DNA of 64,000 nucleotides from a virus (lineage: Duplodnaviria > Caudoviricetes), in IMG/VR virus record IMGVR_UViG_3300037780_000034, positions 96,001 to 160,000 of that record; one strand, given 5' to 3'. Shown here one piece after another: positions 40,027 to 57,479 of the stretch. Every line of letters begins with the position of its first letter. Positions within the stretch are counted from its first letter, which is position 1. A model generated the notes under the pieces. That model saw nothing but the letters and a program-made list of their open reading frames with translations. It was not told the DNA's origin and made no database searches. A program made the translations under genes and the position numbers.

Positions 40027-40084
40027 TAGTTCATCAAGAAACGGACAGCAGATAAAAAAATCTGCAAGATGTTGAAAAAAGGTG

Positions 40085-40113
40085 TTGACAACCATAACCG
40101 AATCAGTTATAGT
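40085..40113 (+). promoter_or_regulatory. Promoter P2 of the tRNA island
   Basis: TTGACA-17-TATAGT; GAATC at 40100. Confidence 0.85.
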
Positions 40114-40134
40114 TACAACATCAAGAAACAAAAC

Positions 40135-40811: not shown

Positions 40812-40933
40812 TGCATCGTAGCTCAGAGGTAGAGCAGGTGACTGTGGATGCTAAAGGTCATAGGGTCAGTTCGATTCTGACAGCATCAACCGTAATCACT
40901 TGGTCGCAGGTTCGATCCCTGCCGATGCAGCCA
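40812..40933 (+). tRNA. tRNA-Asn(GTT) interrupted in the anticodon loop by a 47-nt tRNA-minihelix insert (40846-40892)
   Basis: Removing the insert gives GGTGA-CTGTTAA-TCACT; G73 and CCA present. Confidence 0.75.
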
Positions 40934-41516: not shown

Positions 41517-41645
41517 AGGATCATTTCCGCAATATTTTACTTTGCATCAGAAGCACGTGTTTGCAGGTTCAAGTCCTGCCTCCCCAACCATAATAATTGA
41601 CGGGGAGTAGGCAAATGGTAAAGCCGCGTTAAGTAATATGATCCT
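41517..41645 (+). tRNA. Circularly permuted tRNA (anticodon CAG) in WCMGCAA scaffold
   Basis: 3' part 41544-41590 (ends CCA) precedes 5' part 41601-41629; rejoined stem CGTGC/GCACG. Confidence 0.7.
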
Positions 41646-41756
41646 GTTATATACTACAGGCTAACTTTTGGGGGTTAGCTTGGTGTTACAGAAGTATAGG
41701 AAATCATTCGGAACCAAATAATGCCTATACCATTTTACGGTTCCAGCAAAACACAG

Positions 41757-41785
41757 TTGACAACCGATAGAGAATCAGCTACATT
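41757..41785 (+). promoter_or_regulatory. sigma70-type promoter with GAATC
   Basis: TTGACA-17-TACATT; GAATC at 41772. Confidence 0.7.
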
Positions 41786-41827
41786 ACAGACACTGAAAAT
41801 GAAACCACTAACAAAAGGTGAAACACT

Positions 41828-42543: not shown

Positions 42544-42617
42544 GGCTCTATTGCATTGTGGAATGCAGCGGCTTCTAACCCCGTTTCAAGCAGGTTCGAC
42601 TCCTGTTAGGGCCACCA
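42544..42617 (+). tRNA. Arg-type tRNA body with ambiguous anticodon (CTA in canonical register, TCT in shifted register)
   Basis: GCGGC-TTCTAAC-CCCGT; A20; CCA. Confidence 0.7.
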
Positions 42618-43337: not shown

Positions 43338-43394
43338 AGGATGATTACCGCAAAATTAATAAACTTTTTTTTGGTAAAAGCAGAACATCATCCT
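43338..43394 (+). ncRNA. WCMGCAA-scaffold RNA carrying a bare Gln(TTG)-type anticodon stem-loop
   Basis: AGGATGA/TCATCCT; CTTTT-TTTTGGT-AAAAG. Confidence 0.6.
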
Positions 43395-43407
43395 GATTGT
43401 GTATTGT

Positions 43408-43487
43408 GGGCGAGTGGGCAAATTGGTAAAGTCGGTTCACTCAAAATGAGAGTCATTTTGTCGGTTCGAGTCCGACCTCGCCTACCA
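43408..43487 (+). tRNA. tRNA-Leu(CAA)
   Basis: Loop CTCAAAA, variable arm, CCA. Confidence 0.85.
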
Positions 43488-43572
43488 ATTTTATCTTATG
43501 AGTTAAGATTTGTTTTAATCATTGAAGTCCCTCTACGGGCACCAACAACTATAAACACTAAAATAGAATAAT

Positions 43573-43647
43573 GCGGACATCGTATAAGGTTATTACGCTT
43601 GGCGACCAGCTAAGAAATACAGGTTAGAATCCTGTTGTCCTGCTCCA
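43573..43647 (+). tRNA. Atypical tRNA-Gly-like gene (anticodon ACC, G33, bulged acceptor)
   Basis: CTTGG-CGACCAG-CTAAG; T-loop TTAGAAT. Confidence 0.55.
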
Positions 43648-43655
43648 AATAACTG

Positions 43656-43684
43656 TTGACACTCACCAGAGAATCAACTATAGT
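43656..43684 (+). promoter_or_regulatory. sigma70-type promoter with GAATC
   Basis: TTGACA-17-TATAGT; GAATC at 43671. Confidence 0.75.
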
Positions 43685-43708
43685 AACAGTGTAAGAACTA
43701 ATACTTGT

Positions 43709-43785
43709 GGGCCTGTAGCATAATTGGTTAATGCCCAGTGCTCATAACACTGTCAATCGCGGTTCAAGTCCGTGCGGGCCTACCA
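43709..43785 (+). tRNA. tRNA-Met/Ile2(CAT)
   Basis: CAGTG-CTCATAA-CACTG. Confidence 0.9.
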
Positions 43786-43805
43786 GTATTAGTTTTTGAT
43801 TTTTT

Positions 43806-43863
43806 AGGATGACTTCCGCAAAATTATGCATTTGACCGTTAATCAAAAAAGCAAAATCATCCT
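43806..43863 (+). ncRNA. WCMGCAA-scaffold RNA carrying a bare Asn(GTT) anticodon stem-loop
   Basis: AGGATGA/TCATCCT; TTTGA-CCGTTAA-TCAAA. Confidence 0.6.
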
Positions 43864-44538: not shown

Positions 44539-44661
44539 AGGATCATTACCGCAATTTTATTTGCATTTCCAGCCGTAGATGCAGGTGCAATTCCTGCTCA
44601 CCCTACCAATATAAATTATGGGGTGATCGTCTAATAGTAGGACAACGTATAATATGATCCT
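44539..44661 (+). tRNA. Circularly permuted tRNA-Glu(TTC) in WCMGCAA scaffold
   Basis: 3' part 44563-44608, 5' part 44620-44647; rejoined stem ACGGC/GCCGT; Glu-type D arm. Confidence 0.72.
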
Positions 44662-44697: not shown

Positions 44698-44815
44698 AGA
44701 TTATGTTCAGCAAACCATATAAATTATATGAAAGCCTATCAACGTTGCCGGAAGGCCCGTATGGCAAACCCAGTTTTCGATTTTCTGGTTCTATAAAAAA
44801 GTAGACACATAATCT
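44698..44815 (+). ncRNA. WCMGCAA-scaffold RNA with long-variable-arm-like and T-arm-like hairpins
   Basis: AGATTATGT/ACATAATCT; TTCAGCAA. Confidence 0.5.
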
Positions 44816-46568: not shown

Positions 46569-46652
46569 AGGAATATTTCAGCAAATTTATCTTGGATAAA
46601 ACATTGTTCTCAAAAACAAAGTGAAGTGGTTCAAATCCACATCAATATTCCT
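46569..46652 (+). ncRNA. WCMGCAA-scaffold tRNA mimic (D-like, anticodon-like and T arms; no CCA)
   Basis: AGGAATAT/ATATTCCT; TTGTT-CTCAAA-AACAA; GTGG-TTCAAAT-CCAC. Confidence 0.55.
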
Positions 46653-46663
46653 GACTAATATCT

Positions 46664-46773
46664 TGGAACATTACCGCAACTATAACATAAACAATGGGTT
46701 ACAGGTTCAAATCCTGTCTTTTACAGTTTGTAAAAGTAGTTCAATGGTAGAACAATTGTCAAAAAATGTTCCA
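46664..46773 (+). tRNA. Degenerate circularly permuted tRNA (anticodon CAT) in WCMGCAA scaffold
   Basis: 3' part ~46684-46725, 5-nt linker, 5' part 46730-46759; GTAAAAG/CTTTTAC acceptor; no encoded CCA. Confidence 0.6.
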
Positions 46774-46782
46774 GTATTTTAT

Positions 46783-46856
46783 GGGGGATTAGTTCAATGG
46801 TAGAACAGGTGCTTTACGCGCATCATACAGCAGTTCGATTCTGTTATCCCCTACCA
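46783..46856 (+). tRNA. tRNA-Val(TAC)
   Basis: GGTGC-TTTACGC-GCATC. Confidence 0.9.
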
Positions 46857-46871
46857 ATATTAGGAAAAAAT

Positions 46872-47309
46872 ATGAATAATAAATGGGATTTAAGATTTTT
46901 AGAATTAGCAAAACATATTGCAGAATGGTCAAAAGACCCAAGCACAAAAGTTGGGTGTGTAATAGTAAGACCAGATAAAACTATTGCGTCTGTTGGTTAC
47001 AATGGATTTCCACGTGGTGTTAATGATGAACCAGAAAGATATAATAATCGTGAGATAAAATATCTTATGGTAAAACACGCAGAAGAGAATGCAGTATACA
47101 GTTCAAAAGAATCATTGACTGGATATACGGCGTATGTTACACACTATCCGTGTTCTAGTTGCACAGGAACACTAATACAAAATGGAATAAAAAGAATTGT
47201 AACACAAAAACCAGATGATAGTTTTGCTTCAAGGTTTCGTGATAGTTTTGAATCATCAAAAATAATGATTAATGAAACTGGTATAGAATTAGTTTTAATA
47301 GAAGATTAA
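46872..47309 (+). CDS. dCMP deaminase
   Basis: SKDPSTKVG, GYNGFPRG, HAEEN, PCSSC. Confidence 0.9.
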   Translation: MNNKWDLRFLELAKHIAEWSKDPSTKVGCVIVRPDKTIASVGYNGFPRGVNDEPERYNNREIKYLMVKHAEENAVYSSKESLTGYTAYVTHYPCSSCTGTLIQNGIKRIVTQKPDDSFASRFRDSFESSKIMINETGIELVLIED

Positions 47310-48701: not shown

Positions 48702-48777
48702 TGGTAGAAGGGAAATTGGCGACCGACCGCACTTTGAATGCGTGTTATTGTAAGTTCGAATCTTACTCTACCAACCA
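48702..48777 (+). tRNA. tRNA-Gln(TTG)
   Basis: CGCA-CTTTGAA-TGCG; U1-A72. Confidence 0.85.
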
Positions 48778-51148: not shown

Positions 51149-51367
51149 TGGATCAGTTCAGCAAACAATATTTCCGTGAAAAGGACCGTGACGGTGGTGC
51201 AAATCCGCCCTTCCCCGCCACAGATACACTATGACAACATAGACGGGTTAATCGCCGTAGGAACGAAGCAGTTTCCAAACCAACGATAGGAAGAGTTTGT
51301 CGTCTTCTGTAGTGTATCTTTGACGGGGAAGTAGCTCAGTTAGTAGAGCAGGTAAAAAGTTGATCCA
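51149..51367 (+). tRNA. Circularly permuted tRNA-Phe(GAA) in WCMGCAA scaffold; linker holds another hairpin RNA
   Basis: 3' part 51174-51220, 5' part 51325-51353; rejoined 76 nt with stem GGTCC/GGACC. Confidence 0.75.
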
Positions 51368-52152: not shown

Positions 52153-52241
52153 AGGGGTGCGCCAACGTTGGAGTGTTGGGCTGGTCTCCAAAACCAGTGT
52201 TTGAAAAAACTTAGTGAGTTCGAATCTCATCACCTTTGCCA
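52153..52241 (+). tRNA. tRNA-Trp(CCA) with long variable arm
   Basis: CTGGT-CTCCAAA-ACCAG; G73. Confidence 0.85.
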
Positions 52242-55568: not shown

Positions 55569-57479
55569 ATGTTAATATCTGAAATGATAACCCTATTGGA
55601 AGCAACAAAATACGATTCTATGTTTGATGTTATTACTGGCAATAAATTAAAAACAATTCCAGATAATGTAAAACAATCGTTTAAAGATGCTATAGATACT
55701 CAGATAAATTGGGCTAGAAAATATTTAAAAAAAGAAGATAGAATTATATGGTTTTTACGAGTCTGTAAAATTCATTATTTGGAAGTAATGTTAGGAAGAT
55801 TTCCATCTGATGAAAATATGAAAAATATCAGCAATGAAAGTGACAGATTAAAATTAACAAATGAAAAAAATATCATAATAAAAGAAATAAATAAAACTTC
55901 AAACAAAGCGGGTGGATTGCAGGCAGTTAGAGATATAGGCACTGTTAGAAGAAATTTAATACATTATATTGGACAAGATCAAATTACCAGTATTCAAAAT
56001 TATGTTTTTAAAAATGAGCATCCAAACGAATTATATCAAAAATTTGAAGAATTTGAAGAAGAATGGAAAGAAAAAGTAGGAAGGGATAGTGTTACCATCA
56101 AAGAAGGTGACAAACTTATACTGGGATTTGATGGAGGCACAAAAGGATGGTGGTTGTTAGACCGTGGTGCATGTCGTGAAGAAGGTGATGCAATGGGTCA
56201 TTGCGGTAATGTTCCAAGTATCAAATCTGGTGATAGAATACTTAGCTTTAGAACCCAAATAGAAGGAAAATATTGGAAACCTCATTTAACTTTTATATTA
56301 CACGGTGATGGAACGCTTGGCGAAATGAAGGGTAGAAATAATGATAAACCTAATGAAAAATATCATCCTTATATAATAGAACTATTAAAACAATCTGATT
56401 TAATCAAAGGTATAAAAGGTGGCGGATATCGCCCAGAAAATAATTTTAGTTTAAGTGATTTGGATAAATCTGATCAAGATGATTTAATTGAAATAAATTC
56501 AAACTTAATGAATGTTTTTCAAAGATATAGAAAAAATGGATTTTCAAAAGAAATATTAGCAGAAATAAAAGATAAAAATTATGAATCAAGTTTGCCAAGT
56601 GTTGAAAGTTTTGATTATCCAACAGTTACATTAGAAGAGTGGTCCAATTTAGAAGAATTTGCAAGAAATTTTGATAATGAAGTTTTAAATTCATTAATGG
56701 CAAAAATTGATATAGAAGAAGAATTGGAAAATGATAGATTAGATGATGATGAACTACAAGAAATTGCAGATGAAATCAAAGTAGATTCAAACGATTATTA
56801 TGATATATTAGAACGATTACCACAACAAATACTTCAAACTATGGCAAATGATTTAAATCTTAATGTAGATGTTACCAATTTTAAAGGAATAGATTCTTTA
56901 TCTGAAAATATTGACAAATCAAAATATGGAGACATAATAAGACGTGCCATTGTAAAAACAAAAAACCTAAATAGTCAGCCTATTAAAGATGATCCTCAAA
57001 CAGTTGAATTTATTAATTTTTTTATGAATTCTGTAATATTAAGATCAAGTAAAATTTATAGTGCATATTTAGAATACGATGAAAATAATATTTTTGAAAC
57101 AACATTTTCTTATAAGATTAGTTTTGATGATTTTGTTAATATATTAGAAGAATCTTTTAGTAGTGGTGATGCTACCGAAGATGAAGAAGCTTTTTATATG
57201 GCACAAGATGCAATCAATGAAGGACAATGGTTATCCGTTGATAGTTATGATATATATCAAACATTAAAAAATTTAAAAAAACAAAATAGTCAATTTTCTG
57301 ATTATGACGAAGATGACAGAGAGTTGTATAATTCGTTTATAAAAAGAATAAACACTACAAACGTTGATTTATCTAATTTAAATCCAATAGAAGTTGCACG
57401 AGAAGTAGTAAGAATGATAAATTTTAATGAAAATGCAGAATTAAAAAGATTAAACATTTTAGCAGGTATTAAAAAATGA
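55569..57479 (+). CDS. Putative head protein with PcfJ-like domain, LxE leader
   Basis: MLISEMITLLEA; EGDAMGHCG...LSFR...EMKGR.N; ends LKRLNILAGIKK. Confidence 0.65.
   Translation: MLISEMITLLEATKYDSMFDVITGNKLKTIPDNVKQSFKDAIDTQINWARKYLKKEDRIIWFLRVCKIHYLEVMLGRFPSDENMKNISNESDRLKLTNEKNIIIKEINKTSNKAGGLQAVRDIGTVRRNLIHYIGQDQITSIQNYVFKNEHPNELYQKFEEFEEEWKEKVGRDSVTIKEGDKLILGFDGGTKGWWLLDRGACREEGDAMGHCGNVPSIKSGDRILSFRTQIEGKYWKPHLTFILHGDGTLGEMKGRNNDKPNEKYHPYIIELLKQSDLIKGIKGGGYRPENNFSLSDLDKSDQDDLIEINSNLMNVFQRYRKNGFSKEILAEIKDKNYESSLPSVESFDYPTVTLEEWSNLEEFARNFDNEVLNSLMAKIDIEEELENDRLDDDELQEIADEIKVDSNDYYDILERLPQQILQTMANDLNLNVDVTNFKGIDSLSENIDKSKYGDIIRRAIVKTKNLNSQPIKDDPQTVEFINFFMNSVILRSSKIYSAYLEYDENNIFETTFSYKISFDDFVNILEESFSSGDATEDEEAFYMAQDAINEGQWLSVDSYDIYQTLKNLKKQNSQFSDYDEDDRELYNSFIKRINTTNVDLSNLNPIEVAREVVRMINFNENAELKRLNILAGIKK

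What the first reader, a model, noticed from the sequence alone, without database searches (positions are those of the whole stretch)
43338..43863. Armless mini-RNAs that display single anticodon stem-loops (Gln-UUG and Asn-GUU)
Seen: two ~57-nt scaffold copies contain only an anticodon-type hairpin, CTTTT-TTTTGGT-AAAAG (43364-43380) and TTTGA-CCGTTAA-TCAAA (43831-43847), each followed by GCAGAACA or GCAAAA before the closing stem. The loops match real Gln and Asn anticodon loops. Established: anticodon nucleases such as PrrC, colicin E5/D and VapC recognise anticodon stem-loops. Inference: these could be competitive decoys, donors for anticodon repair, or armless tRNA-like RNAs.
Basis: partly seen in the sequence, partly recalled or inferred. 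Interest (0 to 1): 0.8.

Follow-up and report, generated by a model that had tools for sequence, protein, structure and literature searches.

The report
Phage Ro60-partner small RNAs (Y-like)
The two 57-nt hairpin RNAs are real; they are the smallest of eight "handle" RNAs in this jumbo phage's tRNA cluster and belong to a widespread, uncatalogued family that is most likely the RNA partner of a phage Ro60-like ring protein.

Summary
Both elements exist exactly as described: A at 43338-43394 and B at 43806-43863. They are not a pair. They are two of eight same-strand units in the tRNA cluster that share one handle: a covarying 7-8 bp terminal stem, the 5' motif UWCMGCAA and a 3' CUG.

The handle is widespread. 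The two variable stem positions pair in 117 of 135 distinct copies, against 25 expected.

The handle tracks one protein, DUF2828+DUF7788. Its AlphaFold model (pLDDT 93.6) matches only Ro60/TROVE structures over its full length. Handles flank this gene on its own strand in 65 of 80 protein-selected loci, against 4 on the opposite strand. This phage encodes the protein, and a bare handle sits in that gene's leader. The same pairing occurs in Felix O1-type phages and a mycobacteriophage.

B belongs to a subclass whose hairpins carry anticodon-type loops of the form C-U-N-N-U-A-A. B itself has C33 where real tRNAs have U33. A belongs to a conserved "GG-loop" subclass, so the Gln reading fails.

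Best reading: these are Y-RNA-like partners of a phage Ro60-like protein. What the variable hairpins are for is still open. This scan has reached the same conclusion before on other genomes.

The parts
43338..43394 (+). Unit A, 57 nt: terminal stem 43338-43345/43387-43394, handle motif TACCGCAA 43346-43353, GG-loop hairpin CTTTT-TTTTGGT-AAAAG 43364-43380
   Evidence: relatives of the hairpin type
43806..43863 (+). Unit B, 58 nt: terminal stem 43806-43812/43857-43863, handle motif TTCCGCAA 43814-43821, anticodon-arm look-alike TTTGA-CCGTTAA-TCAAA 43831-43847 (Asn-type, with C33)
   Evidence: anticodon-loop class statistics; own tRNA-Asn
41517..41646 (+). Unit U1: same handle (AGGATCAT/ATGATCCT, TTCCGCAA) carrying a circularly permuted tRNA body. 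Order: anticodon loop AUCAGAA, T arm, CCA, spacer, acceptor 5' strand, D arm
   Evidence: weak YrlA hit of 21.4 bits; first-reader note seen
44539..44661 (+). Unit U2: handle plus permuted tRNA body (loop AUUUCCA, CCA end, break after position 29)
44698..44815 (+). Unit U6: handle with a different stem (AGATTATG/CATAATCT) and TTCAGCAA, carrying three unrelated hairpins
   Evidence: RF01414 hit of 21.2 bits
46569..46652 (+). Unit U3: handle (AGGAATAT/ATATTCCT, TTCAGCAA) carrying an anticodon-like hairpin and a T-arm-like hairpin
46664..46773 (+). Unit U4: handle (GGAACAT/ATGTTCC, TACCGCAA) carrying a permuted tRNA-like body whose acceptor stem is closed by a 3-nt loop, as in YrlA
   Evidence: full-length but sub-threshold YrlA alignment of 31.5 bits
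51149..51367 (+). Unit U5: handle (GGATCA/TGATCC, TTCAGCAA) carrying a permuted tRNA body (loop GUGAAAA, CCA, spacer of about 100 nt)

Best explanation
A and B are small non-coding RNAs of a 'CAGCAA-handle' family, built like Y RNAs. The constant part is a 7-8 bp helix joining the two ends, the single-stranded motif UWCMGCAA beside its 5' strand, and a 3' CUG. This part is the docking site for the phage's own Ro60-like ring protein (DUF2828+DUF7788, encoded 51 kb upstream). The variable part is the working module. In B it is an anticodon-arm look-alike of the type found in tRNAs that read ANN codons (here Asn-type). In A it is a conserved GG-loop hairpin. In four sister units it is a whole permuted tRNA body. 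By analogy with Ro60/Y-RNA particles, the module would tether the ring protein to proteins or RNAs that recognise tRNA parts, or shield them from it. Candidates include anticodon nucleases and RNA repair or decay enzymes, which would serve phage tRNA maintenance or counter-defence. Shown: the RNA family, its covariation, its genomic link to the protein, and the protein's fold. Inferred: binding, expression and the role of the modules.
For: Family and structure. There are eight units in the cluster with compensatory stem changes. The two free stem positions pair in 117 of 135 distinct copies against 25 expected, in 15 pair combinations. Half of the copies start within 12 nt of a tRNA CCA end.

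Link to the protein, from the RNA side. The commonest neighbouring gene is a ~470-aa DUF2828+DUF7788 protein, found in 26 of 110 loci, always on the same strand and often 20-53 nt away. Seven of nine further unit-bearing contigs carry it elsewhere, including both contigs that are at least 90% complete.

Link to the protein, from the protein side. In 80 loci chosen by protein alone, 65 have handles in the gene's flanks on its strand (81 units), against 4 on the opposite strand.

Own genome. The protein is P0001 at G000:85209-86636. A bare handle, GAATGAT-AACAGCAA-12 nt-ATCATTC, lies between its promoter and its ribosome-binding site.

Fold. The AF2 model has pLDDT 93.6. The top 13 Foldseek PDB hits are all Ro60/TROVE, led by the phiLo phage Ro60 9kop (E 5.6e-11, TM 0.60) and Xenopus Ro 1yvr (TM 0.64); the next hits cover the vWA domain only.

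Breadth. The protein occurs in 710 phage records. Felix O1-type phage C600M2 has it just ahead of its tRNA cluster, followed by 4 units, and that region is conserved in 233 records including FelixO1. Mycobacteriophage GuuelaD has 3 units after its gene annotated 'Ro-like RNA binding protein'.

Precedent. YrlA/YrlB lie beside rsr (PMC4201824). The phiLo Ro60 binds two upstream Y-like RNAs (PMC12135203). Bas63 gp130, described as Ro60-like and upstream of the tRNAs, counters the ppl defence (PMC11482910).

Context. An Rnl1-type RNA ligase lies 1 kb upstream of the Ro-like gene and an Acb1-like gene lies downstream.
Against: There are no expression or binding data for any member. The handle motif differs from the known Ro60-binding motifs (GGUCCGA, GNCGAAN0-1G, CGAA). 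Pfam TROVE does not detect the protein, so the Ro60 link rests on a predicted fold with TM about 0.6. In this phage the gene lies 51 kb from the RNAs. Gene adjacency could also reflect a shared tRNA-cluster neighbourhood. Two of nine extra contigs lacked the gene, although both are incomplete.
Confidence: 0.65

Rival explanations
1. Free-standing decoys. The hairpins soak up anticodon nucleases by themselves, and the handle only stabilises the RNA and defines its ends.
For: Anticodon-type loops are strongly enriched: 45 of 120 units against 2.2 in shuffles. They follow the C-U-N-N-U-A-A form of ANN decoders, which include Lys-UUU, a known nuclease target (my own knowledge of PrrC and PARIS). 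Different triplets sit on one constant stem.
Against: This does not explain why an unpaired 8-nt motif is conserved from mycobacteriophages to jumbo phages, why a bare handle sits in the Ro-like gene's leader, or why many units carry no anticodon-like loop at all (A, U6, the GG-loop class and the GCUAA..UAGCG class). B has C33.
Confidence: 0.12
2. Punctuation of the tRNA precursor. The units are cis-acting processing or stability elements (RNase E, RNase P or exonuclease stops) between tRNAs and have no function in trans.
For: The units lie between tRNA genes on the same strand, often 5 nt after a CCA end, and have U-rich flanks.
Against: Units also occur beside the Ro-like gene away from any tRNA (GuuelaD; leader copies). 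The variable modules are themselves conserved across distant phages. Most tRNA junctions in this cluster have no unit.
Confidence: 0.1
3. tRNA-gene parts. On this view A and B are armless mini-tRNAs or anticodon-arm donors, and the handle is an intron-like splice or ligation site, as in permuted or split tRNA genes.
For: Sister units U1, U2 and U5 hold complete permuted tRNAs with CCA ends and a break after position 29. The phage encodes Rnl1- and Rnl2-type RNA ligases.
Against: A and B have no acceptor end, no CCA and no T arm. The genome has no RtcB. The same handle carries modules unrelated to tRNA (U6). The handle stem stays the same whatever the anticodon.
Confidence: 0.06
4. Decayed tRNA fragments or chance hairpins in AT-rich spacer DNA.
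For: The sequence is AT-rich and of low complexity, and MFE folds are unstable.
Against: Covariation, recurrence in hundreds of contigs and strict strand bias all argue against it.
Confidence: 0.02

Closest known systems
Bacterial and phage Ro60 (Rsr) with Y RNAs: YrlA/YrlB (Chen et al. 2014, PMC4201824; Rfam RF02553) and phiLo Ro60 with Yrl1/Yrl2 (PMC12135203)
   Same: Small RNAs whose ends pair, with a conserved unpaired motif on the 5' side of the stem and a variable module that in some members is a permuted tRNA-like domain (T arm, acceptor hairpin, D arm). They are encoded on the same strand beside a ring-plus-vWA protein, and several paralogous RNAs serve one protein.
   Different: The motif is UWCMGCAA, not GNCGAA or CGAA. 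The protein is a divergent clade that Pfam TROVE misses. Copies are scattered through tRNA clusters, up to 8 per phage. Many modules are bare anticodon-arm look-alikes or GG-loop hairpins. RF02553 does not reach its threshold on any unit.
Handle RNAs beside the Ro60-like gene of Felix O1-type phages (Bas63 gp130, PhageMaP preprint PMC11482910, where the RNAs were only guessed at)
   Same: Same protein family (41% identity to P0001), same CAGCAA motif, same mix of mini and permuted-tRNA units, and an A-type hairpin CUUUU-UGCGGAU-AAAAG.
   Different: The terminal stem is AGACCnn/nnGGUCU rather than AGGAUnn/nnAUCCU. There the gene sits directly ahead of the tRNA cluster; here it is 51 kb away.
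Class I RNAs of Dictyostelium (Rfam RF01414; Kjellin et al. 2021, PMC7919456)
   Same: Length 42-65 nt, a 6-bp stem joining the ends with compensatory changes, and an 11-nt motif beside the 5' strand that is near-invariant at U3, C6, C9, A10 and A11. A's GAUUACCGCAA fits all five positions. They start with AAG and end with CUGU, and the rest is variable. RF01414 is the only non-tRNA family that aligns end to end with units.
   Different: All scores fall below the gathering score of 41.5 bits (A scores 14 bits, the best relatives 25-29 bits). Class I RNAs are eukaryotic and Pol II/III-transcribed, and their known binder is an RRM protein. No link to a DUF2828 protein was tested here.
Anticodon stem-loops of ANN-decoding tRNAs (Lys, Asn, Thr, Ile, Arg-UCU, Ser-GCU)
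   Same: A 5-bp stem and a 7-nt loop C-U-N-N-U-A-A in B's subclass.
   Different: B itself has C33. There is no tRNA body. One constant stem carries different triplets.

Membership tests
CAGCAA-handle RNAs linked to phage Ro60-like (DUF2828/DUF7788) genes (uncatalogued) | Terminal helix of 6-8 bp joining the 5' and 3' ends, kept by compensatory changes | tested here: met
   A has 8 bp and B has 7 bp. 117 of 135 homologues pair at the free positions against 25 expected.
CAGCAA-handle RNAs linked to phage Ro60-like (DUF2828/DUF7788) genes (uncatalogued) | Unpaired motif WWCNGCAA directly 3' of the 5' stem strand | tested here: met
   A has TACCGCAA and B has TTCCGCAA. Variants of the same motif lie beside the protein gene.
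CAGCAA-handle RNAs linked to phage Ro60-like (DUF2828/DUF7788) genes (uncatalogued) | The genome encodes the DUF2828+DUF7788 protein | tested here: met
   P0001 at G000:85209-86636; Ro60 fold.
CAGCAA-handle RNAs linked to phage Ro60-like (DUF2828/DUF7788) genes (uncatalogued) | The RNA accumulates and is bound by the protein | not testable with these tools
   No RNA run holds the stretch. Protein-RNA complexes cannot be predicted with these tools.
YrlA / Y RNA (Rfam RF02553) | Reaches the Rfam gathering score (69 bits) | tested here: not met
   No hit on A or B. The best sister unit, U4, scores 31.5 bits.
YrlA / Y RNA (Rfam RF02553) | Ro60-binding motif GNCGAAN0-1G near the 5' end | tested here: not met
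   The motif here is UWCMGCAA (definition).
YrlA / Y RNA (Rfam RF02553) | tRNA-like domain (T arm, acceptor hairpin, D arm) | tested here: not met
   Absent from A and B. Present in sister units U1, U2, U4 and U5.
YrlA / Y RNA (Rfam RF02553) | Partner protein with a Ro60 ring plus vWA | tested here: inconclusive
   Pfam TROVE is negative, but the predicted fold matches Ro60 over its full length.
Dictyostelium Class I RNA (Rfam RF01414) | Reaches the Rfam gathering score (41.5 bits) | tested here: not met
   A scores 14 bits with E = 2, and B has no hit. Relatives score 25-29 bits.
Dictyostelium Class I RNA (Rfam RF01414) | 11-nt motif with U3, C6, C9, A10 and A11 beside the 5' stem; 42-65 nt; short end-joining stem | tested here: met
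   A fits 5 of 5 positions and B fits 4 of 5. Lengths are 57 and 58 nt (definition).
tRNA (including armless tRNA) | Acceptor end with discriminator and CCA (encoded in all tRNAs of this cluster), and detection by tRNA models | tested here: not met
   The stem is followed by TGA or TGT. Neither ARAGORN nor RF00005 calls the units.
Anticodon stem-loop mimic | 7-nt loop with U33 and a purine at 37, conserved as such in homologues | tested here: inconclusive
   B's class is met in homologues, but B itself has C33. A passes formally (U33, G37), but its homologues keep only a GG.

The most novel reading that the evidence does not exclude
The handle RNAs form a modular bait library. Each copy docks on the phage Ro60-like ring and presents one tRNA part, most often the anticodon arm of an ANN-decoding tRNA such as Lys, Arg-UCU, Thr or Asn. 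In this way the particle captures, blocks or hands over to decay or repair enzymes the host factors that attack those anticodon loops. That would be an RNA-programmed counter-defence whose specificity changes simply by swapping the loop triplet. The same handle in Dictyostelium Class I RNAs would then point to an ancient Ro60-like RNP shared by viruses and eukaryotes.
Probability: 0.25. Interest if true: 0.9.

Novelty: new variant of a known kind. Interest (0 to 1): 0.78.

Why it matters
Ro60/Y-RNA particles are known from animals, about 5% of bacteria and a few phages. If this reading holds, they extend to a protein clade found in 710 isolated phage genomes, among them Felix O1, Listeria, Staphylococcus and Campylobacter phages. 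They also extend to an RNA family that annotation pipelines currently leave blank or label 'tRNA-OTHER'. It would give a concrete, testable identity to the Y RNAs that were only guessed at for the anti-defence gene gp130 of phage Bas63. It would show that phage tRNA clusters hold more than tRNAs. It would also offer a candidate protein partner for the orphan Class I RNAs of social amoebae. The anticodon-arm modules make one question directly testable in culturable phages: whether phages use RNA mimics, and not only spare tRNAs, against tRNA-targeting immunity.

Tried and rejected
Self-cleaving ribozymes, C/D-box RNAs and other known families: cmscan at E up to 10 gave nothing convincing on A or B. 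The snoRNA, nuoG and STnc540 hits are weak and partial.

MITE-like terminal inverted repeats: rejected, because the stems covary and there are no target-site duplications.

Promoter or terminator reading of the 3' flank: rejected, because the spacing to the next tRNA is too short and there is no U-tract.

Archaeal-type BHB splicing: no supporting features were found; the splicing-endonuclease families were not searched. RtcB is absent.

Pfam TROVE in the genome: negative.

The single-sequence AF2 model of P0001 was unusable (pLDDT 35.6).

phmmer and a small HMM against PDB sequences gave only E = 0.1 to phage Ro60.

Megablast and blastn of the region against isolated phages found no relative of this phage.

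My first loose regex scan was swamped by chance matches.

MFE folding of the AU-rich mini-units was too noisy to classify hairpins.

Sequencing runs: no RNA holder is listed, only pond or estuary metagenome DNA contigs.

The PARIS paper was checked for cleavage of Asn or Thr tRNAs, and nothing was found.

The supplement of Chen et al. 2014 that lists phages is not held.

No complex-prediction job was sent, because that tool scores proteins only.

Full report
WHAT IS THERE. The window is part of a 317.7-kb IMG/VR virus record (85% complete). Its best DNA holders are pond metagenome runs. Positions 40.8-54.5 kb hold a tRNA cluster: 22 tRNAs by ARAGORN and 24 Rfam tRNA hits. Unit A spans 43338-43394 and unit B spans 43806-43863. 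Each has a terminal helix (AGGATGA(T) with (A)TCATCCT), then TACCGCAA or TTCCGCAA, then an A-rich linker, one hairpin, another A-rich linker, the 3' stem strand and TG. The pattern is far above chance (3 matches against 0.08 expected).

NOT A PAIR BUT EIGHT. Repeat finding and a stem-plus-motif scan show eight units, all on the + strand and all inside the cluster: 41517-41646, A, B, 44539-44661, 44698-44815, 46569-46652, 46664-46773 and 51149-51367. The stems differ but stay paired: GGATCAT/ATGATCC, GGATGAT/ATCATCC, GGAATAT/ATATTCC, GGAACAT/ATGTTCC, GGATCA/TGATCC and AGATTATG/CATAATCT.

Four units carry a circularly permuted tRNA body in the order T arm, acceptor strand with CCA and spacer (or a closed acceptor hairpin), then D arm. 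A note from the first stage corrected my reading of three of them. The break lies after position 29 of the anticodon stem, so a complete anticodon loop (AUCAGAA, AUUUCCA, GUGAAAA) follows the handle motif directly. I checked this against the sequences. The common layout is therefore a handle plus a hairpin, with or without the rest of a tRNA. This architecture is that of YrlA. Rfam RF02553 aligns end to end with 46673-46778, but at only 31.5 bits against a threshold of 69.

A LARGE FAMILY. Among 135 distinct copies, the two stem positions the pattern left free are both paired in 117, against 25 expected when partners are shuffled, and they use 15 pair combinations. Half of the copies begin within 12 nt of a tRNA CCA end. 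No Rfam family reaches its threshold on any unit.

THE PROTEIN LINK. I clustered all ORFs in the 110 unit-bearing loci. The commonest neighbour is a ~470-aa protein with Pfam DUF2828 and DUF7788, present in 26 loci, always on the unit's strand and often only 20-53 nt away. Seven of nine further unit-bearing contigs carry it elsewhere, including both contigs that are at least 90% complete.

The reverse test gave the same answer. I chose 80 loci by the protein alone. Handles lie in the gene's flanks on its own strand in 65 of them (81 units), and on the opposite strand in 4. Where the strict scan had found nothing, the sequences showed variant stems with the same motif, a permuted tRNA-like unit just upstream of the gene, or a tiny handle in the leader.

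This phage encodes the protein (P0001, G000:85209-86636). Between its sigma70-like promoter and its Shine-Dalgarno sequence sits a bare handle, GAATGAT-AACAGCAA-12 nt-ATCATTC. That placement suggests the handle alone is the protein's binding site and may feed back on its translation; this is an inference.

THE PROTEIN HAS THE RO60 FOLD. Pfam TROVE misses it, and sequence searches of the PDB give only E = 0.1 to a phage TROVE protein. With 115 homologues the AlphaFold2 model reaches pLDDT 93.6. Its 13 best Foldseek matches in the PDB are all Ro60 proteins aligned over the whole length: phage phiLo Ro60 (E 5.6e-11, TM 0.60/0.61), Xenopus and human Ro60 (TM up to 0.64) and Deinococcus Rsr. The next hits cover only the vWA domain.

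The clade occurs in 710 isolated phage genomes. In mycobacteriophages it is already annotated 'Ro-like RNA binding protein'.

In Felix O1-type phage C600M2 the gene sits directly ahead of the tRNA cluster, and four units follow it, one of them a permuted tRNA-like body. That stretch is conserved in 233 records including Felix O1 itself, where it is unannotated or labelled tRNA-OTHER. Mycobacteriophage GuuelaD has three units right after the gene.

A 2024 preprint found that the Felix O1-type Bas63 gp130 looks like Ro60, lies upstream of the tRNAs and counters the ppl defence. It guessed that some 'tRNAs' might be Y RNAs but did not identify them (PMC11482910). I did not check the Bas63 sequence itself. 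Chen et al. 2014 searched only genomes annotated with TROVE proteins. In the papers I could search, I found no description of this RNA family.

WHAT A AND B DISPLAY. B's hairpin belongs to a clear subclass. Of 120 distinct mini-units, 45 have a stem of at least 4 bp closing a 7-nt loop of the form Y-U-NNN-R-N, against 2.2 in shuffles. The 32 distinct hairpins have C32 in 26, U or G at 34 in 29, U36 in 24 (binomial p = 1.5e-7 against composition), A37 in 31 and A38 in 27. That is the loop of tRNAs reading ANN codons (my own knowledge of tRNA loops). The commonest triplets are UUU, UCU and UGU.

One constant stem carries different triplets. UUUGA/UCAAA, which B also uses, occurs with UCU, UUU and GCU. 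B's own loop, CCGUUAA, is one change (U33 to C) from the Asn loop of this phage's own tRNA-Asn.

A is different. Its relatives share the U-rich/A-rich stem and a GG in a loop of 5-9 nt: CUUUU-UGCGGAU-AAAAG in Felix O1-type phages, CUGUU-UGCGGAU-AACAAG in a mycobacteriophage, and AUUGGA or AUUUGG in metagenomic copies.

MECHANISM. The best-supported reading is a Y-RNA-like particle in which the handle docks on the Ro60-like ring and the module engages something that recognises tRNA parts. In known systems Y RNAs tether Ro60 to PNPase or gate its cavity (PMC4201824, PMC12135203). The Ro-like gene here lies 1 kb downstream of an Rnl1-type RNA ligase, which appears as two overlapping ORFs, and 1.6 kb upstream of an Acb1-like gene. 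That is a repair and counter-defence neighbourhood. Whether the modules act as decoys for anticodon nucleases, as adaptors for repair or decay, or as something else is inference only.

RELATION TO KNOWN FAMILIES. The units work like Y RNAs but fail the membership tests for RF02553 on score and on motif. The published description fits closely: 42-65 nt, a short covarying end stem, an 11-nt motif with invariant U3, C6, C9, A10 and A11, an AAG start and a CUGU end. RF01414 is the only non-tRNA model that aligns end to end with units, but always below its threshold: A at 14 bits and relatives at 25-29 bits against 41.5. This is a resemblance, not membership.

STATUS. Earlier follow-ups of this scan reached the same Ro60-like/handle-RNA conclusion on other genomes. 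My evidence here was gathered independently up to that look-up. Expression and binding remain untested.

Noticed in passing
window 40812-40930: tRNA-Asn(GUU) whose anticodon loop is interrupted after GT by a 47-nt insert. The insert folds like an acceptor/T-arm minihelix (GGATGCT...GTCAG-TTCGATT-CTGAC-AGCATC). Rfam calls it a tRNA with a long insertion; ARAGORN misses it.
   Followed up: partly
outside the window: G000:C1:85155-85188 (55-22 nt upstream of the Ro60-like gene at 85209-86636): A bare handle (7-bp stem, AACAGCAA, 12-nt loop, no module) lies between a sigma70-like promoter and the Shine-Dalgarno sequence of the Ro60-like gene. It may be an autoregulatory site.
   Followed up: partly
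outside the window: G000:C1:83092-84232: An Rnl1-type RNA ligase (PF09511) appears as two overlapping ORFs of 196 and 198 aa, 1 kb upstream of the Ro60-like gene. This could be a frameshift, a sequencing error or a split gene. An Rnl2-type ligase lies at 36.7 kb, and an Acb1-like gene lies downstream of the Ro-like gene.
   Followed up: partly
window 42544-42617: A tRNA with anticodon CUA (ARAGORN labels it 'Pyl'), that is an amber-suppressor-type tRNA in the cluster. Its best DNA match is a tRNA annotated Pyl in phage DSS3_MAL1.
   Followed up: no
window 43575-43640, 48702-48774, 52153-52237: tRNA-like sequences found by Rfam only (33.4, 36.5 and 35.7 bits; the last as tRNA-Sec below threshold) and not by ARAGORN. 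Gln, Phe, Trp and Ala tRNAs are missing from the ARAGORN list. The permuted unit at 51149-51367 carries a GAA (Phe) loop.
   Followed up: partly
window 56201-56215 (- strand): An exact copy of the handle start GGAACATTACCGCAA lies on the opposite strand inside the 636-aa ORF at 55569-57479. It is probably chance.
   Followed up: no
IMG/VR loci L139, L152, L159, L172, L188, L191, L203, L212, L219, L227: A third module subclass in the mini-units: GCUAA(C)...GUCUAGCGAC, in which GCUA can pair with the UAGC loop of a GUC/GAC hairpin. This may be a pseudoknot.
   Followed up: no
loci L120-L239 (neighbours of units): Other genes recur near units: a 189-aa calcineurin-like phosphoesterase (24 loci), a dual-specificity phosphatase (12), an RNaseH-like PF04308 protein (11), a dCMP deaminase (15, also in the window at 46797-47309) and homing endonucleases.
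   Followed up: partly
window 40075-40114, 41747-41786, 43646-43685: Three copies of a sigma70-like promoter (GTTGACA...TATAGT or TACATT) inside the tRNA cluster. The one at 43646 lies between units A and B.
   Followed up: no
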